From assembly GCF_902728285.1 (NCBI RefSeq), contig NW_027104472.1, forward strand, positions 935,681-999,680: a DNA stretch of 64,000 nt, read 5' to 3'. Position 1 is the first letter of the stretch, and each line of letters begins with the position of its first letter. Positions 5,299 to 52,717 of this stretch are shown piece by piece. Origin of the DNA: Clytia hemisphaerica (Eukaryota). Under the pieces are notes generated by a model. The model saw nothing but the letters and a program-made list of their open reading frames with translations, was not told where the DNA came from and made no database searches. Position numbers and translations under genes: made by a program.

Positions 5299-5405
5299 CA
5301 TTTCTCAGACGTGGTTTAGCATACCAAGCTCTGAAGAAGTTGGATCTGGCTTTGAAAGACTTTACAATGGTCGTGGAAATAGAGCCTAAGAATAAACGGG
5401 GGAAG
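5299..5405 (+). CDS. SPAG1: SPAG1 exon 7, TPR continuation (AFLRRGLAYQALKKLDLALKDFTMVVEIEPKNKRGK)
   Basis: Matches human 'ALLRRATTYKHQNKLREAREDLKKVLDVEPDN'. tttcag acceptor and gtttgt donor. Confidence 0.85.
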
Positions 5406-30653: not shown

Positions 30654-30780
30654 AGGGTTCACGAAGTTTATTTTGGAACAGATATGAAACTTGGAGAAGA
30701 TTTGATAAAACGTGTATTCTGCAAAATTAAATAATTGCAACTATTGAACTGAACACATATAAAACAATGTTTTCTAAGAT

Positions 30781-31990
30781 TTATTCATAGAATTATATTT
30801 CACAGGTCTATCGACCTCTACGAAATAATTTTAGATTTATAAATTGTCTAATTCTTCATCTGTCGTCCAGTCGTCAGAAGATATGGACAGAAGAGAAGAC
30901 GTTGTTTTGGTCTTTGTCCTAGATTTTCGAACTAGGCGAAGGTTTGTTCTAGGGCTTCCTCTTACATGCCAAACGAAATCGTCATTTTTTGAATTCATTT
31001 TTTTCGCCTTTTGGCACATATCTTTAATGATTTTTCTTTCGTTGATAGTGAAGTCGTCTGTGATGCTAAAGCCACCAATTTCATTGAATCGTTTCAGCTT
31101 ATGCAGATTTTGCATTATCCGTTCTTTTTCCTCTATACTTTTTAAGATCAACTTGATTGGACGCCAATGTAGCCCTTTTTGGTTTTGTCCAATGCGATGA
31201 TGGTGGGACGTTTGATATCTTGAACGCCAATGTTACCTAGTATACCTTCAATATCTATTTTGTCCTGTTCCTGTTGTTCCTCTTTGTTGTCTACCTCTAA
31301 TTCCATCATTCCATGTATATAAATATTCGTTTCCTGATTCGATGTCTCTTTCTTCATTCTTGTTTTCTTGTTGTGTTCTCTCACTGCTGATTTGAAATTA
31401 TCCTTGTGTTTCTTAGTTATTTCAGCGTATGTTTTTTCTGATGTTTTTCTCTATGTAATTCGTCGTTTGCTTTATTTCTTTCTTCTTTTATATCTGCTTG
31501 GTTTTATTTCAAGTCAGCCATCTTATTGGTTAAGATGTTTTCGATATCGTTCTTAAGGCTGCGGTTCTTGGCTAGCTGGTTTTTGAGCTTTTTAATGACG
31601 TCGTCCTTCTTCTCAATCTCCCTCTGCATAATATGATACGAGTTCTCACCTATTTTACTCATTAGAGATCGTGTTATCCGCACGCAATTCTGACATAGAT
31701 ATTGTTCGTTATAAGTGTTGGCAAAAATTTGCAGCTGATAAAGCGGTAATTGTGTGCACTCGTAGTGTACCATGCGGTGGCATTTTCGGCATTTTAGACG
31801 GTTTTGGTCATCGTCATCTGAGCAGGAGGTGGGAGTGCATGTTTGGTTTTGTTTAGCTTCTTCAAATGGTTGTTTTTCTTGCTTTTTGTCGGTTTTTTCG
31901 TTCATGTTTTTGATTTTGCTAAATTTCAACCATTTTTGAAGAACTGCACAAAATGCGTGTTGACTAACTGACGTCAAATAAAAAACTGTT
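30781..31990 (-). mobile_element. ORF1-only retroposon, copy A (HAL1-like): Cys/His cluster, coiled coil, then an L1 ORF1p (Transposase_22)-like C-terminal domain. Frameshifted into three ORFs (31977-31504, 31384-31148, 31151-30837).
   Basis: About 95% identical to the copy at 51508-52717. 'IKLILKSIEEKERIMQNLHKLK...ITDDFTINERKI' resembles the L1 ORF1p core 'IIIKLSKVKDKERILKAAREKK...LSADFSAETLQARREW'. Short AATAAA-type 3' end. Confidence 0.7.
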
Positions 31991-33119
31991 GATTTATGTT
32001 GAGAACAACTGCTACTGGAAGCACAATGTTGATTGCCCGCTAAAGCTCAAATGACATTAATAGAATTGTAAGTTTAACAGATGGAAATTAACGTTTATCG
32101 ACTAAAAGTGGTTCGTGGTTCAAAAAGAAATTGGCATGCACCATCGTCACTTATTGTTGCTTTGGAAACGCTCGGACCTTCTCAACTAAATTTGTATTTA
32201 GGGGTTGAATACTGTCAATAGTTCTATTTATAGCTGAGACGATTAATTTGTCTGAGACGAGCAATTTAGAAAATGAGCATTATGGAGGAATGTACTTTCC
32301 ATTCATGTTTCAATAAATAGGATCTCCTCCACAGATCACATTTTACAAACTACTCGTCTCAGACGATTTTTCCGTCTCAGTATAAATGGAACTAATGGTT
32401 AAGTATAAAGGACACTGACAAAGTTCGTTATCAGAACCGTGTATATTTTTGAATTTTTTTGAACTTTATAATAATAAAACTTTTAACAAAAATTACAAAG
32501 TCTGTAAATTTATGTAAATTCTTAAGTAGACTAAAATTGTATAGGCTATTACCTCAAATCCAAGCTAAAAAAAATCCTTCTCGTTCAAGAGTAATCTGAA
32601 AGTGAACCTGTATTTTTACCCTCTAAAGTAAATTTCCATCCCCTTAAGCTTAATTTATTCACTCGAATCAAATCTCCCTACTGTCATCGCCTGATTGATA
32701 GATAATGCATCATCATCATCTATATAATGATTCTTTTAATGAATAGATGAAAAATGGACCAATCAAAAACTATACCATGAACAATCCCTGAGATATCAAC
32801 TTTTTATATAGAAAAAAATATCTATCTCCGAAATAAATAGCCCAATACAGCCCCACCAATAGCCAAACCCACTCTGTAAACATCTTCGAAAGTCCATGAA
32901 TCATCGGAAATGCCAAGCCACTCGGTGAACGACTTGCAAAACATTTGACAGTTGTTCGAAATCTCGCTATATCTGTGAACGAAAAACATTCGAACTTTTA
33001 CAGGTAATACAGTGTTTTTTATAATAACATCCAACATTTTTTAAACCCTTGGATGTTCTTAATTTTGAGTTTTAACCTAAAAGTGTTCTTAATATGCTCT
33101 TATTTTCGCCATTTTCGAG

Positions 33120-35300
33120 TATTTTTGTCCATCTCAATGCAAATAAACCAGCCGAGGCTGGAAGGTCAGCCAATAGAGCTTAGCTAGATAGCTTTAATAA
33201 GTGGGTTAACAGATGTAAGAGATGTACTGAAGACTAAAAATGTTGAATAATGTACAAAACGTGAAACATTTGATAACTTGATTTAAAACTATTTAAAACA
33301 AGCCTGAGAGCTCCTCCAACCGAACCCCCCCTACCAGAAGATCAAAGTATACTTCTCTTTAGCATTGTAGCACTGTTTCTACGACATCAAACAATTAAGC
33401 TATAGTTCATTACTATAAAAAAGAGAAACATAGTGTAATTAAAACTTTTTGTTAATTTCTACAAAGATGTTTTTTTTTTTTTTTTTTTTATTTTTTTGTA
33501 GACAATATCCATATCTGACCAAAGTGTTATCTAGAAATAAATTAGAAAATTGCCAAAATGTCAGAACCAAAATAAAGATATCCATCAAATATATAGAAAC
33601 TGTACTTTTTGTTTAAGCGCAACTCCAGAAAAACACAATTTGCATCAAAATCTTTGCAAAACGCAGTTCATATTTATAACATATCAACAGGAACTGTATT
33701 TTGGTAGACTTGGTCAAATTACAGAAACCATTTGTCAGTTGTCTGCAAGGCCAATGAGGTACGTAAAAACTGACTGCTATTCAGTCAAAGCCAAAATTTG
33801 GCAAGGTCAGAAAAACATAATTTACATCCAGTCTTCGTAAATAAATTTTGTAGTTTAGTGCCGTCAAGTTACACAGCATGCACACTACCATCTTGAAGAC
33901 TTTGCTGGTCGCAAATGATAATCGAAATCTAAACTTAAAATTCCTAACTATACAGGGAAGCACATTTTTCCCCCATTTTGCTTTAAACTCCCTTTTGATT
34001 GGTCTATGAATTTGGGCAATCGCTTTACCGCCTTAGCGGAGTAAACACACTACCATAATAAATAAATTCAACAGTGCAGCGGAGTAGCAATTAATTTCAA
34101 CTGGGAGTCCACTCTTCTGTGCCAAGCACTGGCAGTGTTTTTTAAACTTTAAAACAATGTTAAATGAAGACCAGATGGATCTGTTTGTTATGACTGTGCA
34201 AGTTGTGACGAGAGTGTGCATGTTGGGTAACTTGACCGTATAATTCATTAAATTCTAGAAACCATTTTTCATAACTTTCTGCAGTCCGCTTTCTGCAAGT
34301 CTGATAAGAGATATGTATGATGTATAAACTGTTATGGCCATTCATTCCATTCCATCATTCAGTCAAAATGTGCGCCAAGGTTAGAAAAGGTTAGAAAAGC
34401 ACAATCTGCGTCCGGAACTGCGTGAAAAATAGTTTGATCAATTTCAACAAGAACTGTATATATTAATATTGATATAATTGATCAAATTCCAAAGACCATT
34501 TGTCATAATTTTGCAAGTCCAATAATAAGGAGATGTGATGTCATCATTTCATTTGGTTCCCGTCATCTGACCGACCCTGATTTATGGTCAGCAGGTAGAG
34601 TTGGAGAGTAGTCGGAAAGCTTTTCCGCTGCTTTGCTGGATTTCCACTGTCGACCTCTGCACGCTCTGTGTTTACAAGTTTTCAAATCGAATGCTAATGG
34701 AGTGTAAACCGAAAACACCAGTTTTTCCACGGTTTCTCAATTTTAAAATTCGGATCAGTCCACACGGATTCCCTTTCAACAAGATGTAGCTGCTTCTTAA
34801 CAGAAAAATATTTTCGACCGAACAATTTTTTGCGATTCGCCTTATCACAAACAAACACGTCCAAGTCCAAAAAAGCACGATTGCATCCGGACTTTATCAA
34901 ATTCCAATAACATTATAACACCATCGATCCCCCTAGAGGCAAACAAGAAAAATATGTTTTTATTGCAAAAACTATTAAAAAGCAGCAATAAAAAGTATCA
35001 GAAAATTCAATATAAACAAAAACTTGAGCAAACGGCTTTAACATTTAAACCTTCAAAAGATGTAGAAAAAGAATCCCCTTGATGAAAATCCTGTGTTTGA
35101 TTTGCCGAGTTAAAAAAATAAATGACAGAAATTGAAGCTTGCAACAGATTTACACTGGAAATACTTTGGTACAACACTGTACTGACTTATCACATCTAAA
35201 TTGAGCCGCCATCTTGGAAACACTACATTATGATCTGTAAAAACAACGCACGCTAAAAGTACCCAAAAAGTTAACCCGATCGGAAGAAAGTTTAGAAATC
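33120..35300. mobile_element. Second, partial copy of the same TIR-element family as 23458-26132. It shares the 'aaataaaccagccgaggctggaa' block and the 25370-25860-like block.
   Basis: 33140-33190 resembles 23505-23560. 33600-33700 resembles 24190-24290. 34850-35300 resembles 25370-25860. Confidence 0.55.
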
Positions 35301-35984
35301 AAAGTGAGATCGGAAAATCGGATTTTTTTTTTGCCGTCTTATGGTGGAAAATTTTACCTATTTGAATGCTCAGCTTCGGCTGACCAATAAGAATTAAATA
35401 TTTGAAATCAGCTCATTTTATAGATTCACCAGTGTTGAAAACTATTTGAAAACGCACTTCTAAGAAAAGAAATTTGGGTGTCAAGTTTTCACCTAAATTA
35501 GTTATTCGGAAATATAGACTAAAATTGATTTTTTAATTTTAAGAGTTAAAATTGATGGAATCACTAAATTTCAGCTCCTAAAATTCTAGATTGTAAGGTA
35601 AAATAGATTTGTAAATATCAATCGTTTTCCAAAACTAAAAATTTCGTAACTGAGAAAAAATACCGTGCAAACATACCCTTATAAAGAGATTTCTATCCAC
35701 GCATCAGATTTTGAGAAACTATTTTTACAACCAATAATCACTTTTAACAAAGGGAATCTGAATAGAAGACGAAGAAGCCAAAGTGAGATATTATTCTATC
35801 TGATAACAGTTCACTGGTATAACACGCCACAGAGCCCTCCCGAATAGACGCCCCCACCCGCTTATTAATTTTCGAAAATCTTTCGGACACTCCCCCCCCC
35901 CCCCCGTTTATTAATTTTCCAGTTTTTGGACCTACCCCGGTGGGGTGGAGGTCCTATAAATTCACCTCTGTCCGTCCGTCCGTT

Positions 35985-36850
35985 CGTTACCAGCTTTTCT
36001 CGAGATTGAATCATAGGAATCATTTGATTTTTGGTACAAAGGTGCAAAACGGTAGTGGCCAAAATGTGATGGAGCCCGATTTTCGAAAAAAAAAATTTTG
36101 CGGCAAATTTGGGCCAAAAAACGGCTAAAAAACGGGTTTTTTGGACTTTGTGAAAAATTGGATCATTAATTTTTTCTGATTTTTTGCATGAAAGTAGGGT
36201 ACCATCATATGTAAAAGATGGCTCAAGCAGATTTTTGCAAGAAAATTTATTTGGCTTAAAAAACGCATGTTTATCTATAAGAATCACTATTAATAAGCAT
36301 ACATCAATGTTCTTAGTCAAATTACTCAATTTCTTTATGAGATAGATGTTTTTTTGCTCATGAGGGCTTACTTTTGAAGAATATGTGTGTTTAGACATGA
36401 AATTTTGGTTGCTTGGCGTGTTTTTATAGAAAAACTGGCCAAGTTCAATATTTTTTTATAAGCACATTATCAATTACTTAGGTATTAGCTTTTCTCGAGA
36501 TTGGCTCTTTCATTCTTTTTGCACAAAGATGCATAACTATAAACCCTCGAATGTGACTGAGCCCAATTTTCGAAAGAAAAAAAATGTTTTTGGGCAAATT
36601 TGGGCCAAAAAACGGCTAAAAAAAGTGTTTTTTGCATGAAAGTAGGTAAAAGATGGGTCAAGCAGATTTAAAAATTTTTCAGCTCAAAAAAACGCATCTT
36701 TATCTATAAGAATCACTATTAATAAGCATACATCAATGTTCTTAGCCAAATTACTCAATTTTTTGATGAGATAGATGTCTTTTTATGCTCTTGAATATGA
36801 AAGAATATTTCAAGAGCATGAAATTTTGGTTTCTAAGCGTTTTTTTATAA
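35985..36850. repeat. Tandem duplication of a unit of about 450 bp
   Basis: Two units of about 450 bp (35985-36430 and 36485-36850), aligned directly. The 177-aa - strand ORF 35865-36398 lies inside and is rejected. Confidence 0.7.
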
Positions 36851-37170
36851 GAAACAAACGACTAATTTTAATAAATCGTCACTATTTGTGTTCTGAATGA
36901 TTGTTTAACGTTCATGCTCACGTAGATATCAATTATAATATATGTGTTAAATGCATAACCCGGTAGGTCCATAAAAGTATCACTTGTTTGTTCAGGCTTA
37001 ATCTATTTCAAACGTTCCAATTTCGTTTTCATAGAATTAGGTAAAAGGAAAGTTCTAAATATTTTCAGCTCCCCCCCCCCCCGTTATTATATTTTGCAAA
37101 AACTTTAGACCCCCCCTTTTATTCAGACCTCCCCCCTATTATTCCGGACCTCAGAGTAATTCACAATCAA

Positions 37171-37531
37171 AATAGGCAGGGCAAAAACCCGGGGGGGGTA
37201 CTACCCTTGTCGACCGACTGGGGTGCTCCGCTGAGGTTCGAAAAATGGACACTACGTGGGACTCGAAATTTGCGAAAAAAGTGACCCTGAATGGGACTGA
37301 AATCCCAAAATGTTCTCAAATTTTCTACTTTTCTCCCAAATTTTCCAAAAATAGGCACCCTACGAGGGACTGATTTTTCTATTTTGGTTTTTCTGCGACC
37401 CTACCTGGGACTCGTGGAGGTTAAAAAAGGTACCCTGACCAGCGGAGCATCCCCGTAACCCATCTTGCCCTAGTACCCCCCCCCCGGGGGGGGCAAAAAG
37501 TGGGCTATCTAAACTAGAGCTCGATCTCACT
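37171..37531. mobile_element. Solo TIR fragment of the 23458-family, interrupted by a nested MITE (37186-37500; TIR CCGGGGGGGGTACTA..., about 6-7 bp TSD 'GCAAAAA')
   Basis: 'aataggcagggcaaaaa' | insert | 'gcaaaaagtgggctatctaaactagagctc'. The insert ends are inverted poly-G/poly-C 'gggggggtactaccc' and 'ccctagtaccccccc'. Confidence 0.5.
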
Positions 37532-38285
37532 GTTACCTTAGTCGTCTTTGATTCCAAGAACATAAAAAATCATCACTCTCTTCAACTGAAACTTCAATGG
37601 GTTGCTGGGATATCTTTTGATAGGTGCCTCTGCTTTTTCTTATTTCACCGTCCTGGAATCGCCTGGATTCTGCGTAAAGGTGACCACTTTTTTTGCTCGC
37701 TTCGTAACAAATCTTCGCAGGGAAACCATTTTCGTAATCTTCACTTAAAAATGAGATTAACAAGATACAATTTCAAATTCTACTGTTCAGAACTGAAAAG
37801 TCTGCAAAATAAATTTCAAGAATAAAACAGAACCCTAAATCTTAACTCAAGGAAAGTATTGGCTTGTGCGTTATTACGTGACAGCACGCAAAAATTATTT
37901 TTCATAACCATCCACATTCGAACTTATTCGAGTTGAAATCACCCCTTTTTTGCAATCAAAACAACGACACAACCTGCTCGAACACAATGTTATTCCTCTC
38001 AGGTTAAAACCAAATTAGCCGGTGGGATAAAATATAAAAGCTAATTGCTAATAACGTTAAAATCTTGTTTTTGTTTGTGGAGATTCAAAATTCTTATTTG
38101 CAGCAAACAAAAAAAAAAACAATATTAATCTCAAAATCTTTCCTAAGTGCGATGAGTAGTTCAGTCCCTGCAGTTTTCCAACTGGGATTAAATTTTGGGG
38201 CATTTTTGTCATCAGGAAGATTGTTTGGTCTATAGTGTCACTGGGTCTGTAATATTGGGGATAGTCTAAATATTGGGGATAGTCT

Positions 38286-38397
38286 ATTCCCAGCTGGCAC
38301 ACAACGTTGTTTCAACGTTCATCTAAAGTTACATGGACGTTGTGAACGTTAGATAAACGTCGAAAAAACGTTGTGTGCCAGCTGGGTTAAAAAAATC
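38286..38397. mobile_element. Foldback MITE, same family as 28750-28860
   Basis: Same inverted termini. Confidence 0.7.
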
Positions 38398-41365: not shown

Positions 41366-43029
41366 TGTTTACAATTGGGCCTTCCACTTTCACACGTACA
41401 CTGAAGTTGAGCCCAGTGCTTTTGTAACACATTCCCTAAAATTACAGACATGCGAAATGTGTTCAATGGCTAAATGAAAACAAAAATATCACGTGACCAT
41501 ATTGTATAGAACGGACAACGTCATTTCTGAGAATCTATTTTCTGAGAAAACTCAGCGGGAGAGTGTTTTGTTTACCTTGTTTTGTTGTTTTCAAACGATT
41601 TTTAAACACACTCTCCTTCATTGATGCTATAAAGTGACCACGGTTTTAAAGTGGTAGATTCTCTTTGTACCAAAACACACTTGACCCGATGTACTTCAAT
41701 ATTTGTAGTGCCTCCCTTACAAGAATCGTTTGACCGAGGCCAAGTAATATTATCCGGGGGGGTTCTTAGGCAAGAATAGACACTAGGTAGGTGTGTGCCT
41801 TAAGGGCTGGATTTTTCCTCCCTCTTTTCAAGTCTCTCTAGGGTTACTCTTAGGTCCCAAATAAATGGAGGGGGGTTGGAAAATCTTAAAAAATAAGGGG
41901 CCTTCTCTTTGACAGTTGAAAATAATCTTGAAAATTAATAAACTGGGGGGGGGTCCTTATAAGGTCCGCGGGGGTTGGAAAATTTTCGAAAAATTAACAA
42001 GCGGGGGGGGGCGTTTATTTGGAACCTAAGAATACCAAAACAACCAAAACAAAGAACTGTCTCTCTAAAGGTCGTTTTTTTTCACAAACTCGAGTCAAAG
42101 AAGAGTGAAAAGTCAAGAAAGTAAGAAAAGTTTTCGAAAGTATTGGAGATTTTTTTTTTCTTTTCAAATTGAAGAAATTTTTGTGAAGTTCTCTTTCCAA
42201 GGTCACTTTTTAGCAATGACTCAGGGTAAGGGTTTGGAGATCCAGCACACTCATATCCCTCAACCCTAGTACCTCCCCACATATACTGTGCTTAGAGGCT
42301 GTCCACATAGTACGTACGCACTGAGGGGGGGAGGGAGTCTTCTCAAAGGCGTGTGCTTGCGTACAGGGAGAGAGGATGGGTGAAAGGAAAATGTACGTAT
42401 GCAGAGAAAAAATTTTCAAAATTTTTTATGCTTCTCATTGATTGGATTAATCGGATTCAAATTTCCTCGTTTTAGCAAAATTTTAGGAAATTAACTGAAA
42501 AGAAATGCTTTCTTTTTCTTTTATCCTTTAGAGGACAAGCATAAGTACATTATGTGAAAATTTCAAGTCTCTAGCATTTTCCTGTCCGAAATTATCTTGA
42601 TTCCGATTTAGAGGGATCTCAACCGGGATGAGGACGAGATAGAGGGATCCCTCCTATTGTGGTAAATAGAAACAAAATAATATAATACGAAAATGGCTAA
42701 AAAAAACAAGAAAGTTTCTAAACAGGTTTTTGCCACCGAGCGAGCACAGCGAGCATAGGTGGCTTCATAGCTTCACGAGGTTGTGCAGATGGTTTAAATT
42801 TTCGCCGTCTTTTTTTTTTAATTTCGCCTAGCGAAAGTATTACGATAGTCTTTCGCGGCGGTGCGGAAAAAAAATTAGAAAACGAAAGTACTTGATACGG
42901 TGGACGAACTCACTAAATTTAATTTACAAATTACACGCTCGTATAACCACGGACAATTTTCGCGGGTTTTCTTTGGATTACGTCATATATTTTTGTGTCT
43001 TTAGCTTCACAGTTTTGATTTTTTCTTTA

Positions 43030-44075
43030 TTTTCTTATAAGCATATACTTTATAAGATTCAAATCAATAACTCTTGATAGACGGTGATATACCTTTCGAG
43101 AATTAGTTCTTTCAAAGTAAACAAGAGATGGCGCACAATATGAGCATATTCATTTTTCTTATAAGCATATACTTTATAAGAATCAAATCAATAAATCTTG
43201 ATAGACGGTGATATACCTTTCGAGAATTAGTTCTTTCAAAGTAAACAAGGGATGGCGCACAATATGAGCATATTTATTTTTCTTATAAGCATATACTTTA
43301 TAAGAATCAAATCAATAACTCTTGATAGACGGTGACATACTTTTCGGTAATTAGTTCTTACAAAGTTAACAAGGGATGGCGCACAATATGAGCATATTTA
43401 TTTTTCTTATAAGCGTGTACTTTATAAGAATCAAATCAATAGCTCTTGATAGACGGTGATATACCTTACGGTAATTAGTTCTCACATAGTAAACAGGAGA
43501 TGGCGCACAATATGAGCATATTTATTTTTCTTATAAGCATATACTTTATAAGAATCAAATCAATAACTCTTGATATACGGGAATATACCTTTCAGTAATT
43601 AGTTTTTACAAAGTAAACAAGGGACGGCGCACAATATGAGCATGATTATTTTTCTTATAAGCATATACTTTATAAGAATCAAATCAATAACTCTTGATAG
43701 ACGGTCATGTACCTTTCGGTATTTAGTTCTTACAAAGCAAACAAGGAATGGCGCACAATATGAGCATATTTATTTTTCTTATAAGCATATACTTTATAAG
43801 AATCAAATCAATAACTCTTGATAGATGGTGACATACTTTTGGGCAATTAGTTCTGACAAAGTAAACGAGGGATGGTGCACAATATAAGCATATTTATTTT
43901 TCTTATAAGCATATACTTTATAAGAATCAAATCAATAACTCTTGATATACGGGAATATACCTTTCGGTGATTAGTTCTTACAAAGTAAACAAAAGATGGT
44001 GCACAATATGAGCATATTTATTTTTCTTATAAGCATATACTTTATAAGAATCAACTCAATAACTCTTGCTAGAGG
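43030..44075. repeat. Tandem array of a 124-bp unit, about 8.4 copies ('cttataagcatatactttataagaatcaaatcaataactcttgatagacggtgatatacc...')
   Basis: Unit starts at 43034, 43158 and 43282, then every 124 bp. Confidence 0.85.
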
Positions 44076-44396
44076 GTGAAGGCTCGATGTAAAGTAGATT
44101 TCAGATTAGCTTCAATCTCTACTTCTTGTTTTTCCCATGCAATTCAAAGTCTAGGCGAAATTTTCGACTTCAAGTCGTCTTGTTTTTTTTGTCGTACACA
44201 GCTAGCCCGTATTTATAGTATTCCGTATATTGGGGGATTATGGCGTGGGTGTTTGGCTGCGGGCGTACTACGGCCAATATTCTAAAGGTGGACTCACTCA
44301 CAAAGATAAAAAACAGCGCTTTTCTTAATAATTAAAATACGCTAGTGTAAGAAGTGTAACCAAGCCTTTGTAAACATTAATGGCTGCTTGAAACGG

Positions 44397-44943
44397 AAAA
44401 TGTTATATCGGATGGCCAAAAGTCACCTCACCTTCTTTTCTTTTCTTTCCTATCTCTTATCCTATTTTTCTCTTTTCTGACTGTCTGAGTTTCTGAGACT
44501 TAGTTTCTCATTTCTGACTGAGTTTTCATACCTGTCAATCATTTGTCCATCAATTTCGACCAGTCTAATTTTTGCACCGAGTGGGATTCGAACCACCACC
44601 AAAGAAAGACCTTCAGTTTCGGAAGCCAGCGCTCTATCCGTTGAGCCATCGCCGCACAGCAGAACCACGCAATTCATAACATATTATACCGAACTGGCAA
44701 AAGACGGGGGTAATATTATTATAATATGGGTAACAGTACCCCTTTTTTAAACCTGACTGAAATTCGAGCCGTTACTAGCAACCCTGCGGGGCCCACGGCG
44801 CCGAGTATGCACCCGGCACAGTGACAAGCCGTTACTAGCAACCCTGACCCTACCTAACCCCTGGAAAAGTGACTATCAGCGATCCGTGGATAAAAAAATA
44901 AAATTAAAAAATGAAGGTGACTATTGGCCATCCGATATAAGAG
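44397..44943. mobile_element. TIR-bounded element ('TTATATCGGATGGCCAAAAGTCACCT') that contains a degenerate tRNA-like (SINE-head-like) segment at 44575-44660 on the - strand
   Basis: Inverted ends at 44397-44425 and 44915-44943. The internal segment in reverse complement has a D-arm-like 'GCTCAACGGATAGAGC' and a T-loop 'GGTTCGAATCC', but the acceptor stem does not pair. Confidence 0.45.
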
Positions 44944-45345
44944 CATCCGCTTGAAACTAGTTTTCACCGCCTTTTGAAACTTGCTGCTGTTATTATAAAT
45001 TTTTATCATGTTTTCTGGTCTTTTGTAGAGTATTTAAAGAGGTTTATTATTCGTTTACTACTAAGTATTTTATGTTTGTGTAGTTAGTGAATGCACCAAT
45101 AAATTGATAATGCTCAGTAAATAGTACAAAAAGAGTTAATTTTCCACAACAACTCATAGCCCTCTTCTTCACCAAAACTACAAACAGCACAGCCACAGGT
45201 ATGATCTTTTACTTTTATCTGATGAAGTTTGATTGGTTTTCAACCAATGTGTTTGGTTTAAGAAAAAGTTCCAGCTTTTCCTCCCCGATGCCAGCCCAGG
45301 CGATGTCAACCGAACCCTATCAAACCGATTGTCGTATATCATATC

Positions 45346-45694
45346 AGGACCCTGCCGGCGCACCGGACTGTCCAGTGTATTTGTCCGGTGGCAAAAAGTA
45401 TCCTTTCACTACACCGGACGCAATAAGTCTGGTGTAAGTCCGGTGTTGCATACAGGGAATTTTGGACGCCGGACGACATTTATGAAACAAAAAATTAAGA
45501 AACACCGGACGTACCGGACTGGTCATGTCCGGTGTTTTGATTATCCGGTGGGAAAAAATATCCTTCTCCGACACCGGACATCCGACTTCCTTAAGTCCGC
45601 TGTAGAAATTGTCCGGTGGTAAAAGAAATTCTCATTTTACACCGGACTTTTGCATGTCCGGTGTTCGTTAAGTCCGGTGCGTCGGCAGGGTCCT
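45346..45694. mobile_element. hAT-like MITE: TIR 'AGGACCCTGCCGGCGCACCGGAC', 8-bp TSD ATCATATC, internal ACACCGGAC/GTCCGGTG mini-repeats
   Basis: Identical 8-mers at 45338-45345 and 45695-45702. Inverted 23-bp ends. Confidence 0.75.
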
Positions 45695-45989
45695 ATCATA
45701 TCGAACCATCAAATTTCATCGAACGAAATCAAACGGTTAGGTGTTTGATTACCGAACCTGATCGAAGAGTAATCGAACTTTACCAGAAAATCTTCAGTAT
45801 TGATTAAAGTTATATCGCAGTTTGATCAAGTTCAATCAATGTTTTTGTAGCTCAAATGGTTCCAGTTATTGACCTTACCGCCTGACCGCAATTTCTTGGT
45901 TCGATGACTGTTCGATTTGGTTCGGTAATCAAACAGTTCAATTGACATCGCCCGGCCGATGGGTTGATAGATATTTGCCTGCTCTATAA

Positions 45990-48125
45990 ACACATGACTT
46001 AAAAGGTTATGAACAGGTTGAATGTCCGGCTGAATCATCAAAAGGTGGTGTCAAGCTTTATTTTTCTGATAACATCAAAAACTACACTGAAAGGGATGAC
46101 CTGAAAATTTACAAAAAAAGTCAGCTCGAATCAAAATTCATTGAAGTCACAAATTCTAGTAATAAAAAATATATAGTTGGCTGCATTTATAAACATCCAA
46201 AGATGGACATCAATGAATTTAATCTTCTCTACTCTAAAATACTTGACAAAGTAAATTCTGAAAAAAAAGAAATTTTCATTATGGGTGATTTTAACATTGA
46301 TCTACTGAAAATTGAGACTAAACCTCAACATGAAGAATTTTTACAGTGTAACCTTTCCAATGGTCTAAAACCTTACATCATAAGACCTACAAGAATCACT
46401 CCTACTTCCAAAACATTGATCGACAACATCTATTCTAACAACATAGATAATCAAAATATTTCTGGAAATCTTATTTGGGCTATTTCTGATCATCTTCCAC
46501 AATTTCTCCTGGTCAAAGCTCCAAAACAAACAAAGACCTATCCCTATTATTCTTGGCGAGACTTGAGAAATTTTAATGAAAATAATTTTTTGCTTGAGTT
46601 TCAGTACACAAACTGGGACACCTTATTTCATGGAAAATCTATCAATGAAAAATTCAAAATTCTAATTAAAAAAACAAATGAAATTATTGACAGACATGCA
46701 CCCCTCAAAAGATCTAAAATAAATAAAAAAACAAACAAACCATGGATAACAAAGGGCATCTCTAAATCAATTAAACAAAAAAACAAACTCTACAGATATT
46801 TCATGCGTGCCAAAAACCAGAAGATAAAAGCACAAAAACACTTAATTTTCAAAAGATACCGTAATGTTCTGGTAAAGGTCATGAGGAAAAGCAAATCAAA
46901 TTATTACAAAAACTATTTTCAACAAAATGAAAAAAACCTTCGTAAAACCTGGATTGCCATAAACGAGATCTCACATGGAAGACAGAACAAAGAACAACAA
47001 ATAAATGTCATTCAAAGAGAAGACAAATTGTTGGAAAAGCCTGAAGAAATAGCAGAAGAATTCAATTCTTATTACAGTTCGATCGCCACAAAAACAAAAT
47101 CAAGAATACCAAACACAGAAAAGCACTTCTCTAGTTACCTTGACGATCCAGTGTTAGACTCCATTTACTTATACGAAACAAACAAAGAGGAAGTAGACAA
47201 ATTAATTCACAAACTAAAAGATAGCAAAGGCACAGGACCAAACAGTATTCCTACAAAATTTTTAAAAATCTTATCTCCTGCCATAAGCCAGATCATTTCC
47301 AATTTAATCAACATTTCTATTCTGAATGGAATATATCCTGACTGCCTCAAAATTGCTTCTATAAAACCACTACACAAAAAGGATTCCAAACTACTAACTG
47401 GAAACTACAGGCCCATCTCCCTCCTTTCTAACCTGAACAAAATTTTTGAAAAAATAATTCATTGCCGACTTTATCGTTTTCTTGAAAGTAAAAAAAGCCT
47501 CTACAAACATCAGTTCGGTTTCAGAAAAAAACACAGCACAAATCATGCAATCATAGCATTAACCGAAGAAATCAGAGACGCTCTTGACAACGGAGAATTT
47601 GCCATAGGTGTCTTCATTGATCTACAGAAGGCATTTGATACAGTAGAACATTCTATACTTCTTGAAAAACTTGCAAATCATGGCATAAGAGGAACTGCAA
47701 ACCGTCTGTTGACCTCCTATCTAAACAATAGAAAACACTGCACTAAAATTAATCAAAAATCATCAACATATAAAGAATGTAAACATGGAGTACCTCAAGG
47801 ATCGGTACTTGGTCCTCTACTTTTTTTAGTTTATATAAGTGATCTCCATAAAAGCATTACCAATTCCAAAACTTTTCATTTTGCAGATGATACTAGCATT
47901 GTTTGTAGGGGAGCCTCCCTAAAAGACTTAAAACTCCTTGTACAAAATGATCTCTTCGGACTAGTCCATTGGCTTAGAGCAAATAAAATAAGCCTCAATG
48001 CAGGAAAAACTGAGATAATTATTTTCAGATCAAGATACAAAAAAATTGATTGTAAGCTTGTCTTCAAAATGAGTGGTCAGAAATTATTCATCAAAAAGAA
48101 AGTAAAATATAAATTCCCTATATAA
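45990..48125 (+). mobile_element. 5'-truncated, degenerate non-LTR retrotransposon (CR1/L2-like LINE): ORF2 fragment with the C-terminal half of the APE endonuclease (GDFNIDLL, SDHLP) and the reverse transcriptase (FADDTSIV)
   Basis: The frame is open from 45990. The EEP motifs 'GGVKLYFSD...IVGCIYKHP' are followed by RT motifs (PISLLSNLNKIFEKII, FRKKHSTNHAI, QGSVLGPLLF, FADDT). The ORF ends prematurely at 48125, so this is probably a dead copy. Confidence 0.85.
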
Positions 48126-49217
48126 AAGTTGACATCAAAGATGTCTCTAAAGACACCTTTAGAGATCATGTAAAATCATACATAATTGACAAGATGGCCT
48201 AAACATTATTTTCTTTTCCCTAGACCGAGCACTGACTTCTCTGAAATCTTTTCACTTCGAACAATTCATAGTAAGTATTGGTAAGTATCTATTGTTATTT
48301 ATTTCAGTCGTTTCAAAGAAGTATATGTAATGGGAACTCGACAAACCTTGACACTCTCATTTAAAAACAATTAAGTACAGAATGGATCACCTCCCCCTCC
48401 CCCCTTAGTTCTTTTAGGAACTACACTGCCTTTTCTTTTGTTAATAAAACATTCCATATTAGCCAGCAAGGTGGTCATGAAACTTTAGCTAACGCTCCTC
48501 TCATTGGCCTGCCTTCAAACGTGAAGCTATAGTTTCTTATATTTTTATCCTGTAAATATTATACAGCAAAGTAGTTTTTATCATGTATATAACTTGAGCT
48601 ATACGTTGAGAAATATATTTACCTTACCTTACCTTAAGCTTTTTAGTGTGGGCGTCTGCTATTAAGCCGTCGGAAATGGGCAACAAGGTAATAAATGAAG
48701 CTTCAATATAGAACCTCACCGATCTTGATACCTTTTGCTAATCAGGATTTTCATTTTGAATCATTAAAAACTCCAGTGTACCGTTGTTTTGTATAAGATT
48801 CCCATTTCCGCACTAAGATTCTTGATACTTTTCTGGAATCTTTTCCCTATATATATTTTACGGGATAACCAGGAAGAAATTGGGTAGGGTTCGTTTAATG
48901 GGATGCAGTTTAAAGTAGTTGTAAAGGAGTCATTGTTGTGATTTGTACTTATGTAGATTTATTGCATATAGAAAAACCGCTTAGCCCATCATTTTTATTG
49001 GATGGATGTTTATATTGTCATTTTTAAAACCAACCCATCATTTTTATTTATTTAGATATATTCTTTACATTGTTAAAAAATAAAATCTTCATATTATTTC
49101 TTCATGTAACCAAACCTATGCTTATATTTTATATATTATAATATATTTTATTTATTATTATTAGGTGGCACTTAGTGTAAGCTATATCTAGTTTTAATAA
49201 AGCTGAATAAAGAAGTA

Positions 49218-49523
49218 CTCTTAGGTGCCAAATAAACGGTCCCCCCCGCTTGTTAATTTTTCGAAAATTTTCCAACCCCCCCGGACCTTATTAGGACCCC
49301 CCCGTTTATTAATTTTAAAGAATATTTTCAGTTGGCTAAAAGAAGTCCCCTTATTTTGCTCCAAAAAGCCTGATTTTAGCCTATATTTACCTTATTTTTG
49401 GGTTTTCATAAGTACAATTTCCAACCCCCCCGGCAATTAGGTCCCCCCCGTTTATTGAAATTTCAAAAAATTTCGAACCCCCCCGTTTATTCGAACCCCC
49501 CCGTTTATTTGGCACCTAAGAGT
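49218..49523. mobile_element. Poly-C family MITE. Perfect TIR 'ACTCTTAGGTGCCAAATAAACGG' with internal 'CCCCCCCGTTTATTAATTTTCGAAAA' units. Related fragments at 35820-35940, 37060-37145, 39180-39260, 39415-39505 and 41760-42045.
   Basis: The 13+ bp terminal inverted repeat is exact. The motif recurs at least 7 times in the window. Confidence 0.7.
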
Positions 49524-50159
49524 AAACCCACAACTATACTGTAATAACGTAAGAAAGCTTTTGAAATAAAAGAAGCCAAGATAGGATATAAATCACAAAA
49601 TAATCCCGATTTTACAAAAGTTCCAATGAAAGATCACTGTGACATTGAGTTTCATGTATGAAATAAAGGTCTGAACCAAACGATTTGAACTTGAAATTTT
49701 CTTCAACCGAGGGGGGGGGGGGTAAATGAAAAAGTACATAGCACTACTTCGCCACATATCATTAACCGGTCACCTAGTCTGAATCACAGACCTCAAAACC
49801 CAGGAGTAAAAATGTATACAACTCAGTCCAAAAACTACTGGGTCACACTTTTTTACTCATTAGGATTATCTATAATTTGGTCCGAAAATACCAAACACTA
49901 CTTGGTCACGCCTTTTAACTCATTAAAAATGTTCGAAATTCGGACCAAAAACACTAAACACTAAACACTACTTGGTCACGCCTTGTTACTCATTAAAAAT
50001 GTTTACATCTCGGACTTTAACCATATAAGAATGAATTATTTCTTTCGATACGAAATCTGGGTTTCTACCATATAGTAATGAATTTCTTTCGGTGTAGAAT
50101 TTGGGTTTTTACTATATAGGAATAATTCTTTTAGGTGAGAAATCTGGGTTTCTACCATA

Positions 50160-50520
50160 TACACGCTTTTTTTTATAAGAATGGTGTAAATCCATTTCAT
50201 CATGGATATTCTTAAATATTTTGTGAAAATCATCCTAAAATATTCTTACAGCATTCTTATGTTAGGATCCTAATTCAGACTAGCTTTAACATTTAGTACA
50301 TACGTCTCAAGCATAAAATGGCAATTTTGTGAAAGAAGTGAGCCTTACTTGGCGTCTAGGGGGTAATTGACAATTTATAATCGAAAATGCTCTAAAATTG
50401 GCATTCTTAGCTTGAGTAGCAAAATTCCATGATGCTGATATTCTTAGCATTATTCTTAATTTTTTGGCCATTTTCATCATGGACATTTTTATAAAGTGTA
50501 TTCTTATAAAAGAAAAAGCG
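50160..50520. mobile_element. MITE with TIR 'ACACGCTTTTTTTATAAGAATGGTGTAAATCCATTTCATCATGGATATTCTTAA'. Copies also at 51236-51482 and 54443-54712.
   Basis: Three copies with the same inverted termini. Related 'ttataagaa/gttcttaa' MITEs lie at 33020-33130, 55180-55400, 59985-60225, 60430-60675 and 61845-62125. Confidence 0.65.
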
Positions 50521-51507
50521 TGTAGTAATGAATTTCTTTCGGTGTAGATTTTGGGTTTTTACTATATAGGAATAATTCTTTTAGGTGAGAAATTTGGGCT
50601 TTTATTACTAATTTTTCCGTGTAAAATCTGGGCTTTTACAATGTAATAATTCTTTTTTCGGTGAGAAATCCAGGCTTTTCACTACACATTATTTTTTTTG
50701 GATGACCTGAGATTATCAGTGTTTTGGACGAAAATTCGTACAAGTAATCGTATGGTTTGGAGTGCAATTAACGATTAATCACGAGTAACAAAGGAGAAAA
50801 TAGTAATTTGCACGAGTCCGAGGGACGAGTGCAAATTACGGTATTTTCTCCTTTGTTACGAGTGATTAATCGTTAATTGCACGACAAAACATACGATTCC
50901 GAGGTAATCGTCAGTAAATCGTCAGAAAAGAATAAGTGGACAAAAGTGGCCCCCCGCCGAAGAGTGCAAAAAGTGGTAATAGTGCAATTAACGATTAATC
51001 GCACTCCTCTAAACCAATCAGATTCGAGTAATTTTGCACGGCTGACGATTACGATTTTTATCATATCATCGAGGTACGTGGTAATTTTAATTTTAACAAT
51101 TGTTGAAAAATCTGGTTCTTTACCAATTTATAAATAACATTAATAATTGTAGACGATGTTAAATGTGAAAAAAAGACTTGAATGAAATCGGAAAATGAAA
51201 TAATTTTTCAATCATGTTAATAAAATGTTTTCAGTACACGCTTTTTTTATAAGAATGGTGTAAATCCATTTCATCATGGATATTCTTAACTTTTTTGGGA
51301 AAATCATCCTAAAATATTATTACAGCATTCTTAGGTTAGGATCCTAATTCAGACTAGATTTAGCATTTAGTTCATACGTCTCAAAATTCCATGATGGTGA
51401 TATTCTTAGCATATTCTTAATTTTTTGGCCATTTTTATCATGGACATTCTTATAAAGTGTATTCTTTTAAAAAAGCGTGTATCACGATTATTTATTTTTT
51501 TTATTTA

Positions 51508-52717
51508 TTTATTCATAGAATTATATTTCACAGGTCTATCGACCTCTACGAAATAATTTAGATTTATAAATATTGTCTACTTCTTCATCTGTCGTCCAGT
51601 CGTCAGAAGATATGGGCAGAGAAGACGTTGTTTTGGTCTTTGTCCTAGGTTTTCGAACTAGGCGAATGTTTGCTCTAGGGCTTCCTCTTACATGCCAAAC
51701 GAAATCATCATTTTTTAAATTCATTTTATTCGCCTTTTGGCACATATCTTTAATAATTTTTCTTTCGTTGATGGTGAAGTCGTCTGTAATGCTAAAGCCA
51801 CCAATTTCATTGAATCGTTTCAGCTTATGCAGATTTTGCATTATCCGTTCTTTTTCCTCTATACTTTTTAAGATCAACTTGATTGGACGCCAATGTAGCC
51901 CTTTTCTGTTTTGTCCAATGCGATGATGGTGGGACGGTTTGATATCTTGGACGCCAATGTTACCTAGTATACCTTCAATATCTATTCTACCTTGTTCCTG
52001 TTGTTCCTCTTTGTTATCTACCTCTAATTCCACCATTCCATGTATAATAATATTTCGTTTTCTTGATTCGATGTCTCTGTCTTCATTCTTGTTTTCTTGT
52101 TGGTGTTCTCTCACTGCTGATTTGATATTATCCTTGGTTTCTTAGTTATTTCAGCGTATGTTTTTTCTGATGATTTTTCTATGTAATTCGTCGTTAGCTT
52201 TATTTCTTCTTTTATAATCTGCTTGTTTTTATTTCAAGTCAGCCATCTTATTGGTTAAGATGTTTTCGATATCGTTCTTAAGGCTGCGGTTCTTGGCTAG
52301 CTGGTTGTTGAGCTTTTTAATGACGTCGCCCTTCTTCTCAATCTCCCTCTGCATCATATGATACGAGTTCTCACCTATTTTACTCATTAGAGATCGTGTT
52401 ATCCGCACGCAATTCTGACATAGATATTGTTCGTTTTAAGTGTTGGCAAAAATTTGCAGCTGATAAAGCGGTAATTGTGTGCACTCGTAGTGTACCATGC
52501 GGTGGCATTTTCGGCATTTTAGACGGTTTTGGTCATCGTCATCTGAGCAGGAGGTGAGAGTGCATGTTTGGTTTTGTTTAGCTTCTTCAAATGGTTGTTT
52601 TTCTTGCTTTTTGTCGGTTTTTTCGTTCATGTTTTTGATTTTGCTAAATTTCAACCATTTTTGAAGAACTACACAAAATGCGTGTTGACTAACTGACGTC
52701 AAATAAAAATGTGGAAA
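51508..52717 (-). mobile_element. ORF1-only retroposon, copy B: intact 192-aa RRM/CTD ORF (52114-51536) with the upstream Cys/His ORF truncated (52702-52436). A-rich (TAAA)n-like tail at 51480-51510.
   Basis: Aligns end to end with copy A. The tail in reverse complement reads 'aataaataaataaaaaaaataaataa'. Confidence 0.7.

What the first reader, a model, noticed from the sequence alone, without database searches (positions are those of the whole stretch)
30781..52717. Two copies of an ORF1-only (HAL1-like) retroposon whose ORF1 carries an N-terminal Cys/His cluster
Elements at 30781-31990 and 51508-52717 (both - strand) are about 1.2 kb and about 95% identical. Each ends in an AATAAA/(TAAA)n A-rich tail and encodes only an ORF1: a Cys/His cluster (LKCRKCHRMVHYEC...YLCQNC), a coiled coil, and an L1 ORF1p (Transposase_22)-like RRM/CTD ('IKLILKSIEEKERIMQNLHKLK...ITDDFTINERKI'). 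Neither copy has ORF2, and the two carry different frameshifts. That points to a recently mobilised non-autonomous family, analogous to mammalian HAL1, presumably moved in trans by an autonomous L1/Tx1-like LINE. A zinc-finger-like module ahead of an L1-type ORF1 is uncommon.
Basis: partly seen in the sequence, partly recalled or inferred. Interest (0 to 1): 0.7.

Follow-up and report, generated by a model that had tools for sequence, protein, structure and literature searches.

The report
ORF1-only retroposon family in Clytia
The window holds two decayed 1.2-kb copies of a jellyfish (Clytia-type) mobile element that keeps only the first, RNA-binding gene of a LINE and probably borrows reverse transcriptase from a related full-length LINE; this kind of parasite of a parasite is known, but I found no description of it for this LINE lineage or animal group.

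Summary

Every close relative with readable downstream sequence is also ORF1-only. The copies share the same ends: a 5' head TTTTTATTTGACGTCA, and a 3' stem-loop followed by a short (AAAT)n tail of variable length. One copy sits inside a satellite array whose empty monomers show the insertion, without a target-site duplication.

More distant ORF1 relatives (about 25-34% identity) are followed by APE-RT ORF2s. The nearest of these share the 5' head, and a fragment of that LINE lineage lies in this window (45996-48146).

It is of CR1/L2 style rather than L1/Tx1/HAL1 style. The PHD-plus-L1-type ORF1 architecture is already described as "Type IIC". The partner LINE was not identified.

The parts
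30779..31985 (-). Copy 1 of the ORF1-only element (1207 bp), a decayed copy
   Evidence: It is 97.75% identical (gaps excluded) to the intact relative L010. Its frame is broken by the shared T loss and at least five private indels.
51488..52709 (-). Copy 2 of the ORF1-only element (body 51507-52709) plus its A-rich (AAAT)n tail (51488-51506)
   Evidence: It is 97.84% identical to L010. It carries a TAT>TAA stop in the PHD region, the shared T loss and private indels.
31968..31985 (-). 5' terminal head TTTTTTATTTGACGTCAG, containing a CRE-like palindrome TGACGTCA (31969-31976). The same head is at 52693-52709 in copy 2. Proposed internal promoter.
   Evidence: The head is conserved at the 5' boundary in c1, c2, L002, L003, L007, L008, L010 and L011, and as TTTGACGTCA-N7-8-(G/A)ACG in the LINEs L015-L018. 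The promoter role is inferred.
31919..31933 (-). Mini upstream ORF ATGGTTGAAATTTAG (MVEI*) in the 5'UTR. Copy 2 has it at 52644-52658.
   Evidence: A 4-5 codon uORF sits at the same place in L002, L007 and L011. Its function is unknown.
30837..31905 (-). Disrupted ORF1 of copy 1 (ATG at 31905, stop TAA at 30837-30839). Copy 2 starts at 52630; a 2-nt insertion shifts its stop to 51536-51538.
   Evidence: The intact versions are P0035/L010, 356 aa.
31684..31839 (-). PHD-type zinc finger with C4HC3 ligands (C23, C28, C39, C42, H47, C50, C71, C74 of P0035). Copy 2 has it at 52409-52564.
   Evidence: Pfam PHD E 9e-5 at 22.9 bits, just under the 24-bit cutoff. PHD hits 59 of 100 superfamily members, best E 6e-8. 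A profile of the family hits MLL1 PHD3 and Pygopus PHD in the PDB at E about 0.01. The AF2 model is poor here.
30924..31327 (-). RRM + C-terminal domain of ORF1p (NIIIHG ... LRLVRK). Copy 2 has it at 51650-52054. The coiled coil lies between the PHD and this region.
30796..30827 (-). 3' UTR two-part stem-loop UAUUUCG-UAG-AGGUC-GAUA-GACCU-G-UGAAAUA. Copy 2 has it at 51524-51555. It is followed by UAAUUCUAUGAAU(AAAU)n. Proposed recognition site for the partner's reverse transcriptase.
   Evidence: All 12 pairs form in 6 distinct sequences, with one compensatory U-A to C-G change and one A-U to G-U change. This stretch is 86-94% identical between subfamilies whose proteins are 38-49% identical. 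The recognition role is inferred by analogy with L2-clade LINEs (PMC4176376).
45996..48146 (+). Truncated LINE ORF2 (end of APE plus RT), from the lineage whose ORF1 is the nearest relative of the ORF1-only family. Not part of either copy. It shows that the candidate partner lineage is present in this genome.
   Evidence: Pfam RVT_1 E 5.7e-35. It is 41-49% aa identical to the ORF2 of L018, L016 and L015, against 28-32% to L009 and L013.

Best explanation
These are two dead copies of a protein-coding, non-autonomous LINE ('half-LINE') family of hydrozoans. The window is Clytia hemisphaerica or a very close relative.

A live element is about 1.2 kb. It has a roughly 80-nt 5'UTR that starts with a conserved head carrying a CRE-like TGACGTCA site (probably an internal promoter). 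It has one ORF encoding a 356-aa ORF1p made of a PHD finger, a coiled coil, an RRM and a CTD. It has a roughly 55-nt 3'UTR made of a conserved stem-loop and a terminal (AAAT)n repeat. It has no endonuclease or reverse transcriptase.

Proposed mechanism: the element is transcribed, and its ORF1p coats its own RNA. The ORF2 protein (APE-RT) of a related autonomous CR1/L2-style LINE recognises the 3' stem-loop and tail and copies the RNA into a nicked target by target-primed reverse transcription. The result is full-length or slightly 5'-truncated copies with variable short tails and no regular target-site duplication.

Shown: the unit and its ends, the loss of ORF2, the ORF1p fold, homology to ORF1s of real LINEs, insertion into a satellite, and selective constraint on the ORF and both termini.

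Inferred: promoter activity, RNA binding in cis, recognition of the stem-loop, and the identity of the partner.
For: 1. Discrete unit. The same 5' end (TTTTT(T)ATTTGACGTCA) and 3' end (...GTGAAATATAWTTCTATGAAT, or ...CTATAAAAT in other subfamilies, then a short A-rich repeat) occur in unrelated flanks at c1, c2, L002, L007, L008 and L010.

2. Insertion. The L008 copy lies in a ~179-bp satellite. Uninterrupted monomers show that 13 nt were replaced by the element plus 5 nt.

3. ORF1-only. No RT or APE is found by tblastn in 0.8-2 kb downstream of the ORF in L001, L004 and L008, nor around c1 and c2. Most family contigs are 1.0-1.5 kb.

4. Expression and integrity. L010 has an intact 356-aa ORF. 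L005 starts 17 nt inside the unit and ends in an A run at the unit's 3' end.

5. Constraint. dN/dS is 0.29 at dS 0.70 for L010 against L001. The 3'-terminal 50-66 nt are 86-94% identical where the proteins are 38-49% identical. The stem-loop is 100% paired with one compensatory change.

7. LINE ancestry. Relatives at about 25-34% identity are followed by APE-RT ORF2s: L006, L009, L013, L014 and L015-L018. L015-L018 share the TTTGACGTCA...GACG head. L016 ends in CTATTGAATAAATA(CTA)9, compared with CTATGAATAAAT here.

8. A truncated ORF2 of that same lineage is in the window.

9. Multi-copy in Clytia. At least six NCBI/UniProt gene models of this family fall into two or more subfamilies.
Against: - No autonomous LINE with the same 3' stem-loop was found, so the partner is inferred only.
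- No target-site duplications were seen at any copy.
- Copy number and the 5'-truncation profile in the genome could not be measured. Only one 5'-truncated copy (L001) was seen.
- Covariation support for the stem-loop is thin: one compensatory pair, and 20 of 500 shuffles reach the observed score.
- The CR1/L2 assignment of the related LINEs was not made by RT phylogeny. It rests on ORF1 type, microsatellite tails, the absence of an L1-type CCHC and a C-terminal motif I recognise from my own knowledge.
- I could not verify whether L005 and L010 are RNA-derived contigs.
Confidence: 0.75

Rival explanations
1. It is a host gene family: an ORF1p domesticated by the animal (as L1TD1 was in mammals), intronless, with the two window copies being processed or duplicated pseudogenes.
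For: The ORF is intact and under purifying selection in many relatives. NCBI annotates family members as ordinary 'uncharacterized protein' genes in Clytia. The CRE-like site could be an ordinary promoter element.
Against: Homology between copies starts and stops at exactly the same bases, with the putative promoter inside the repeated unit. One copy is inserted in a satellite monomer. The last 50-66 nt are far better conserved than the coding sequence, and tail repeats vary in length. Several subfamilies and decayed copies coexist in one genome. The 5' head is shared with autonomous LINEs.
Confidence: 0.1
2. It is a HAL1-type element in the strict sense: derived from and mobilised by an L1/Tx1-clade LINE through its poly(A) tail.
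For: The ORF1p fold matches L1 ORF1p. Copy 2 and L007 have A-rich tails. The unit ends in AATAAA. L005 ends in an A run.
Against: c1, L008 and L010 end in only AAAT or AAAAG. There is no target-site duplication. The 3' stem-loop is conserved. The related autonomous LINEs end in (CTA)n or (ATAAC)n microsatellites, and their ORF2 lacks a C-terminal CCHC. L1-type ORF1 also occurs in the CR1 and L2 lineages, with a PHD in Type IIC (PMC4120745).
Confidence: 0.07
3. It is a local segmental duplication, or two independently ORF2-deleted or truncated copies of a full LINE, and not a family in its own right.
For: The two copies are only 20.7 kb apart, in the same orientation, and share one frameshift.
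Against: No flank homology exists beyond the unit. Each copy is closer to the intact L010 (97.8%) than to the other copy (96.4%). The same unit with the same ends occurs in six other loci and several subfamilies.
Confidence: 0.03

Closest known systems
HAL1 (half-L1) of mammals
   Same: A non-autonomous LINE derivative that keeps a coding ORF1 of the coiled-coil/RRM/CTD type and has lost ORF2, and is thought to use ORF2p in trans. This description of HAL1 rests on my own knowledge of Bao & Jurka 2010; the term occurs in papers listed.
   Different: HAL1 derives from L1 and uses poly(A)/L1-type integration. Here there is an N-terminal PHD finger, a conserved 3' stem-loop with a short (AAAT)n tail, and no target-site duplication. 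The related autonomous LINEs are CR1/L2-style.
HeT-A of Drosophila telomeres (Jockey clade; Gag/ORF1 only)
   Same: An ORF1-only non-LTR element of the Jockey superfamily, maintained over long periods with an intact ORF1 and dependent on an RT supplied in trans. This rests on my own knowledge and was not tested here.
   Different: HeT-A has a Type I ORF1 (CCHC knuckles), is telomere-specific and is about 6 kb. The element here is 1.2 kb, dispersed (including within a satellite) and has a Type II-like ORF1 with a PHD.
Type IIC ORF1 of CR1/L2-lineage LINEs (Metcalfe & Casane 2014, PMC4120745): mosquito and amphioxus Crack/Daphne elements, Schistosoma PERERE-2/5/6
   Same: The same protein architecture: an N-terminal PHD (best PDB matches Pygopus/MLL, as in their Table 1) followed by a Transposase_22-like coiled coil, RRM and CTD.
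   Different: Those are ORF1s of autonomous elements followed by ORF2. No cnidarian member is listed there; the Hydra elements listed are Type IIA or IIIA. The family here has no ORF2.
Stringent-type LINE/SINE partnerships (UnaL2/UnaSINE1, ZfL2-1/-2; Hayashi et al. 2014, PMC4176376)
   Same: A non-autonomous element whose most conserved part is a 3' stem-loop followed by a short terminal repeat. That is the feature cognate ORF2 proteins of L2-clade LINEs recognise.
   Different: SINEs are non-coding and transcribed by pol III. This element codes for its own ORF1p and looks like a pol II transcript. A LINE with the identical tail has not been found.
L1TD1 (domesticated L1 ORF1p gene of mammals; PMC4161310)
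   Same: A stand-alone gene encoding an ORF1p-type protein.
   Different: L1TD1 is a single-copy syntenic host gene. This is a multi-copy unit with transposon-like ends, decayed copies and an insertion in a satellite.

Membership tests
L1 ORF1p-type (Type II, Pfam Transposase_22 PF02994) | Sequence match to the PF02994 HMM at or above its gathering score | tested here: not met
   No hit at E<=1 for the window protein. None of 100 superfamily members hits at E<=0.01. hhalign of the family profile against human ORF1p aligns the RRM in register, but only at E 0.009 and probability 4%.
L1 ORF1p-type (Type II, Pfam Transposase_22 PF02994) | Coiled coil followed by a non-canonical RRM and a CTD (fold level) | tested here: met
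L1 ORF1p-type (Type II, Pfam Transposase_22 PF02994) | Trimerisation and single-stranded nucleic acid binding / chaperone activity | not testable with these tools
   Needs biochemistry.
Type IIC ORF1 (PHD + Tnp22) of CR1/L2-lineage LINEs | N-terminal PHD finger (C4HC3) | tested here: inconclusive
   All eight ligands are present and nearly invariant. Pfam PHD gives E 9e-5 but 22.9 bits, below the 24-bit cutoff. 59 of 100 relatives hit PHD. PDB profile hits to MLL1 and Pygopus PHD are at E 0.01-0.1. The AF2 model of this part is unreliable, pLDDT 30-40.
Type IIC ORF1 (PHD + Tnp22) of CR1/L2-lineage LINEs | ORF1 lies upstream of an APE-RT ORF2 in the same element | tested here: not met
   Met for the distant relatives L006, L009 and L013-L018. 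Not met for this family: no ORF2 in c1, c2, L001, L004, L008 or L010. It is therefore a derivative of such LINEs, not an autonomous member.
Type IIC ORF1 (PHD + Tnp22) of CR1/L2-lineage LINEs | RT of the associated LINEs falls in the CR1 or L2 (Daphne/Crack) lineage | not tested
   No reference RT set or RTclass1 was available. Indirect signs only: microsatellite tails, no C-terminal CCHC, and a CR1/L2-like C-terminal motif recognised from my own knowledge.
HAL1 (half-L1) | Only ORF1 retained and coding | tested here: met
HAL1 (half-L1) | Derived from an L1-clade LINE; poly(A) tail and L1-type target-site duplications | tested here: not met
   Tails are AAAT or AAAAG in c1, L008 and L010. No target-site duplication at four sites, and a 13-nt target deletion at L008. 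The relatives are LINEs with microsatellite tails.
Non-LTR retroposon (inserted by target-primed reverse transcription) | Discrete unit with a constant 3' end, unrelated flanks and a demonstrable empty site | tested here: met
Non-LTR retroposon (inserted by target-primed reverse transcription) | Population of 5'-truncated copies; target-site duplications | tested here: inconclusive
   One 5'-truncated copy was seen (L001, about 25 nt short). No target-site duplications were found. The genome was not available for a census.
Stringent-type non-autonomous partner of a LINE | 3' tail (stem-loop plus terminal repeat) shared with an autonomous LINE of the same genome | not tested
   The stem-loop is conserved and pairs in all copies. 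However, the only LINE 3' ends recovered (L015, L016, from other organisms) share just the terminal CTAT(T)GAATAAAT(A). The LINE fragment in the window lacks its 3' end. A viral-contig scan for the tail found nothing.

The most novel reading that the evidence does not exclude
This is an old, self-sustaining lineage of protein-coding 'half-LINEs' in hydrozoans, and not a recent deletion derivative. It lost ORF2 once and has since diversified into subfamilies with 38-98% protein identity. It keeps its own PHD-ORF1p under purifying selection. It may swap 3' modules: the L011 subfamily has a different hairpin and an (ATACA)n tail. Such swapping could let it follow different partner LINEs. That would make it a CR1/L2-side counterpart of HAL1 and HeT-A, and a natural system for asking what ORF1p does in cis for an RNA that has to capture a foreign ORF2p.
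Probability: 0.4. Interest if true: 0.6.

Novelty: new variant of a known kind. Interest (0 to 1): 0.45.

Why it matters
ORF1-only LINE derivatives are rare. To my knowledge, the well-studied examples are HAL1 in mammals and HeT-A in Drosophila.

A compact 1.2-kb coding element with a minimal 5' head and a minimal 3' stem-loop, living beside related autonomous LINEs in a tractable jellyfish model, would allow two direct tests. One is whether an ORF1p acting in cis helps an RNA compete for an ORF2p supplied in trans. The other is which RNA features a CR1/L2-style reverse transcriptase reads.

It also matters for annotation. Clytia gene models named 'uncharacterized protein PF3D7_1120000-like' and 'cilia- and flagella-associated protein 263-like' belong to this transposon ORF1 superfamily. 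Pfam Transposase_22 misses a superfamily of more than 12,000 protein clusters.

Tried and rejected
- A profile search of PDB sequences found only PHD fingers weakly and no ORF1p.
- Target-site duplications: longest common substrings between flanks at c1, c2, L001 and L002 gave nothing convincing.
- Partner search within the window: the tail motif occurs only in the two copies, and the LINE fragment at 45996-48146 lacks its C-terminus and 3' end.
- Partner search outside the window. The metagenome scan returned only 5 loci. The viral-contig scan for the tail returned none. Look-ups of the NCBI Clytia proteins P0009 and P0239 were not on record.
- Rfam and tRNA scans of the window found nothing.
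- The RNA fold of the 3' 82 nt alone is not exceptional (z -1.6). The case for the stem-loop rests on conservation and one compensatory change.
- I considered assembly homopolymer errors as the cause of the frameshifts. I rejected this because several indels are not in homopolymer runs and there is also a substitution stop.
- The AFDB library was unavailable.
Full report
**Observation.** The two regions align as one block of 1212 columns at 95.9% identity, with 35 mismatches and 13 gap openings. Both are on the minus strand, and no other copy is in the window. A base-by-base alignment shows that homology starts at (T)TTTTTATTTGACGTCAG and stops at CTATGAATAAAT, with unrelated sequence on both sides. 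The exact coordinates are 30779-31985 and 51507-52709. Copy 2 continues into a 19-nt A-rich tail (AAATAAAAAAAATAAATAA, to 51488). Copy 1 has only the terminal AAAT. The window has about 35% G+C and no tRNA or Rfam hits.

**Source organism.** The closest protein cluster (at least 90% identity) contains two UniProt entries from Clytia hemisphaerica. One of them is 91.6% identical to the translation of copy 2. The window is therefore from Clytia hemisphaerica or a very close relative.

**The coding content.** Stitching the frames gives a roughly 355-aa protein. Its intact counterpart exists: P0035 (356 aa) and the contig L010, which carries an uninterrupted 356-aa ORF and is 97.8% identical to each window copy.
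- The two window copies are 96.4% identical to each other (gaps excluded), so each is closer to the intact sequence than to the other.
- Copy 1 has at least five private indels.
- Copy 2 has a TAT>TAA stop and private indels.
- Both lack the same T in GACTTTGAA. Both are dead copies.
- Between subfamilies the ORF evolves under purifying selection. dN/dS is 0.29 at dS 0.70 for L010 against L001; more distant pairs are saturated.

**What the protein is.**
- N-terminus: it has the eight ligands of a PHD finger (C-x4-C ... C-x2-C-x4-H-x2-C ... C-x2-C), nearly invariant across 100 relatives. Pfam PHD scores E 9e-5 but 22.9 bits, just under its 24-bit cutoff. It hits 59 of 100 relatives. A family profile finds the MLL1 PHD3 and Pygopus PHD structures weakly.
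Pfam Transposase_22 hits neither the window protein at E<=1 nor any of the 100 relatives at E<=0.01.
- The fold says otherwise. An AlphaFold2 model was built from a 24-sequence alignment (first sequence P0002, 69% identical to the stitched window protein). Its overall pLDDT is 66, and 80-92 in the C-terminal half. It shows one long helix (residues 79-191), a beta-alpha-beta-beta-alpha-beta unit, then a helix and a beta hairpin.
- Foldseek against the PDB ranks human LINE-1 ORF1p structures first to eighth, at E 2.4e-5 to 3e-3 and 146-181 aligned columns for the multi-domain entries.
- The protein is therefore PHD + coiled coil + RRM + CTD.
- That architecture is already described as "Type IIC" ORF1 in the L2 lineage (mosquito and amphioxus Crack/Daphne elements) and the CR1 lineage (Schistosoma PERERE). 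The same Pygopus/MLL templates are the best PHD matches there (PMC4120745).
- An exhaustive HMMER search finds 12,362 cluster representatives at E<=1e-3, most of them 330-450 aa. The superfamily is large.

**Is it really ORF1-only?** Yes.
- Close relatives (38-98% identity) come from contigs mostly 1.0-1.5 kb long.
- Where downstream sequence exists there is no APE or RT by tblastn. This covers L001 (1.2 kb downstream), L004 (0.8 kb), L008 (2 kb) and the window itself.
- L005 begins 17 nt inside the unit and ends in an A run exactly at the unit's 3' end, as a polyadenylated transcript or an A-tailed copy would.
- By contrast, more distant relatives (about 25-34% identity) are each followed within 35-120 nt, or with a short overlap, by an ORF2 with APE and/or RT. 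These are L006, L009, L013 and L014, and the nearest outgroups L015, L016/L017 and L018.
- The family is thus homologous to ORF1 of real LINEs but has itself lost ORF2.

**Is it mobile DNA?**
- The same termini recur in unrelated flanks in c1, c2, L002, L003, L007, L008, L010 and L011 (5' head), and in c1, c2, L001, L002, L005, L007, L008 and L010 (3' end).
- L001 lacks the first roughly 25 nt, as a 5'-truncated copy would.
- The L008 copy (4363-5676) lies within a ~179-bp tandem satellite. Uninterrupted monomers read ...CTGCCAAG-GGATAGGCCAATT-ACAGATTCGG.... The filled site reads ...CTGCCAAG-[element]-TGGCG-ACAGATTCGG.... This is an insertion with a 13-nt target deletion, 5 nt of filler and no duplication.
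- No target-site duplications were found at the other copies.

**The ends.**
- 5' head: TTTGACGTCA (a CRE-like palindrome) followed 7-8 nt later by (C)GGACGTG or a variant (ACACGC in the window copies). It is conserved across the subfamilies.
- Strikingly, it is also found upstream of ORF1 in the autonomous LINEs L015, L016/L017 and L018.
- 3' end: a two-part stem-loop, UAUUUCG/UGAAAUA around AGGUC-GAUA-GACCU. All 12 pairs form in six distinct sequences, with one compensatory U-A to C-G change and one A-U to G-U change. The covariation evidence is real but thin, since 20 of 500 shuffles do as well.
- This terminal stretch is 94% identical between c1 and L008, whose proteins are 38% identical. 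It is 86% identical between c1 and L007, whose proteins are 49% identical.
- In L007 the stop codon lies inside the stem, so the 3'UTR is reduced to this module.
- After the stem-loop comes UAWUUCUAUGAAU (CUAUAAAAU or CUAGAAAAU in the L001/L002/L007 subfamilies) and a short A-rich repeat, (AAAT)n or (AAAAT)n, of 4 to about 35 nt.
- The LINE L016 ends in ...CTATTGAATAAATA(CTA)9, and L015 ends in ...AAATAAATA(CTATAACATATAAC...). Each is preceded by its own larger stem-loop.
- A conserved stem-loop plus a variable terminal repeat is the signature of "stringent" LINEs. In those, the cognate ORF2 protein binds the 3' stem-loop, as shown for L2-clade elements (PMC4176376).
- It is not the poly(A)-dependent mode of L1.

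**The partner.**
- The related LINE ORF2 in L018 is 1012 aa with APE and RT. It has no C-terminal CCHC knuckle of the L1 type. Its C-terminal region looks CR1/L2-like to me, which is my own knowledge and not a test.
- The window holds a 5'- and 3'-truncated ORF2 at 45996-48146. It is 41-49% identical to the L018, L016 and L015 ORF2s, which are 51-55% identical to L018. It is only 28-32% identical to L009 and L013.
- That LINE lineage therefore lives in this genome.
- Its 3' end is not in the window, and I could not fetch Clytia LINEs from outside. The partner remains inferred.

**Most likely mechanism.**
- Shown: a 1.2-kb unit with constant ends, ORF1 only, an ORF1p of the L1 fold with a PHD, selective constraint on the ORF and on both termini, insertion into a satellite, and kinship of the ORF1 and 5' head with autonomous LINEs.
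- Inferred: transcription from the internal CRE-containing head; ORF1p binding its own RNA; and the ORF2p of a co-resident CR1/L2-style LINE recognising the 3' stem-loop and tail and inserting the copy by target-primed reverse transcription. Slippage on the terminal repeat would explain the variable tails.
- Confidence is about 0.75 overall. It is higher (about 0.85) for "ORF1-only retroposon family" and lower (about 0.6) for the kind of partner.

**Rivals.**
- Domesticated host gene with pseudogenes (about 0.1). It is contradicted by the transposon-like ends, the satellite insertion, the shared LINE head and the multiple decayed copies and subfamilies.
- Strict HAL1/L1/Tx1 reading (about 0.07). 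It is contradicted by the tails, the lack of target-site duplications and the related LINEs.
- Local duplication or independently deleted LINE copies (about 0.03). It is contradicted by the star-like divergence and the external copies.

**Comparison and novelty.**
- The element works like HAL1 (mammals) and HeT-A (Drosophila), that is, an ORF1-only element living off another element's RT. Its 3' end looks like those of SINEs partnered with stringent LINEs.
- It fails the defining features of HAL1 (L1 origin, poly(A), target-site duplications).
- It is not an autonomous Type IIC LINE, because it has no ORF2.
- I found no description of such an element in cnidarians or in the CR1/L2 lineages in the searchable literature. 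Repbase could not be consulted.
- I rate it a new variant of a known kind. It is of moderate interest to transposon specialists and useful for annotation.

Noticed in passing
window 45996-48146 (+): A 5'- and 3'-truncated LINE ORF2 (end of APE plus RT; RVT_1 E 5.7e-35). It is 41-49% aa identical to the ORF2s of the LINEs whose ORF1 is the nearest relative of the ORF1-only family. The candidate partner lineage is therefore present in this genome, but this copy has lost its C-terminus and 3' tail.
   Followed up: yes
window 50168-50515, 51242-51476, 54450-54703 (+); partial copy at 62055-62119: A SINE-like short repeat family, with copies 86-95% identical in parts and each ending in an A run. 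Copy 2 of the ORF1-only element lies tail-to-tail with the 51242-51484 copy, 13 nt apart. No tRNA or Rfam match.
   Followed up: partly
window 31919-31933 and 52644-52658 (-); L002, L007, L011: A conserved mini upstream ORF of 4-5 codons (MVEI*, MVNF*, MTEN*, MAENK*), preceded by CTCTTC(A/G)AAAA, in the 5'UTR of the ORF1-only family. It is absent from the related LINE heads. It may control translation.
   Followed up: no
window 29465-29497 (+): TTTTATTTGACGTCATTTTTTTTTGACGTGG resembles the 5' head of the family and its LINE relatives. No ORF1-like coding sequence follows it. It could be a solo head, another element's promoter or chance.
   Followed up: partly
L011 (ORF 138-1199; 3' end about 1200-1310): An ORF1-only subfamily with the same 5' head but a different 3' module: hairpin TAGCAT-AA-ATGCTA and tail (ATACA)4A7. 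This suggests the family exchanges 3' tails, perhaps to use different partner LINEs.
   Followed up: no
L008 1-7750: Apart from the inserted element (4363-5676), the whole contig is a ~179-bp tandem satellite. The insertion replaced 13 nt of one monomer.
   Followed up: yes
window 42906-44197; 58034-58222; 10406-11047: Tandem arrays: a 124-bp unit in about 10 copies (91-95% identity), a 63-bp unit in 3 copies, and units of about 185 bp in 4 copies.
   Followed up: no
window 49215-49500 (+) and 41840-42035 (-): Repeats rich in C runs (e.g. CCCCCCCGTTTATT / TTCCAACCCCC), present as an 89-nt inverted pair at 93% complementarity 7.2 kb apart. They flank the tandem array and the LINE fragment.
   Followed up: no
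Clytia gene models P0009, P0029, P0030, P0069 and P0239 (NCBI/UniRef): Members of this transposon ORF1 superfamily are annotated as 'uncharacterized protein PF3D7_1120000-like' and 'cilia- and flagella-associated protein 263-like'. These names probably arise from the low-complexity coiled coil and are misleading.
   Followed up: partly
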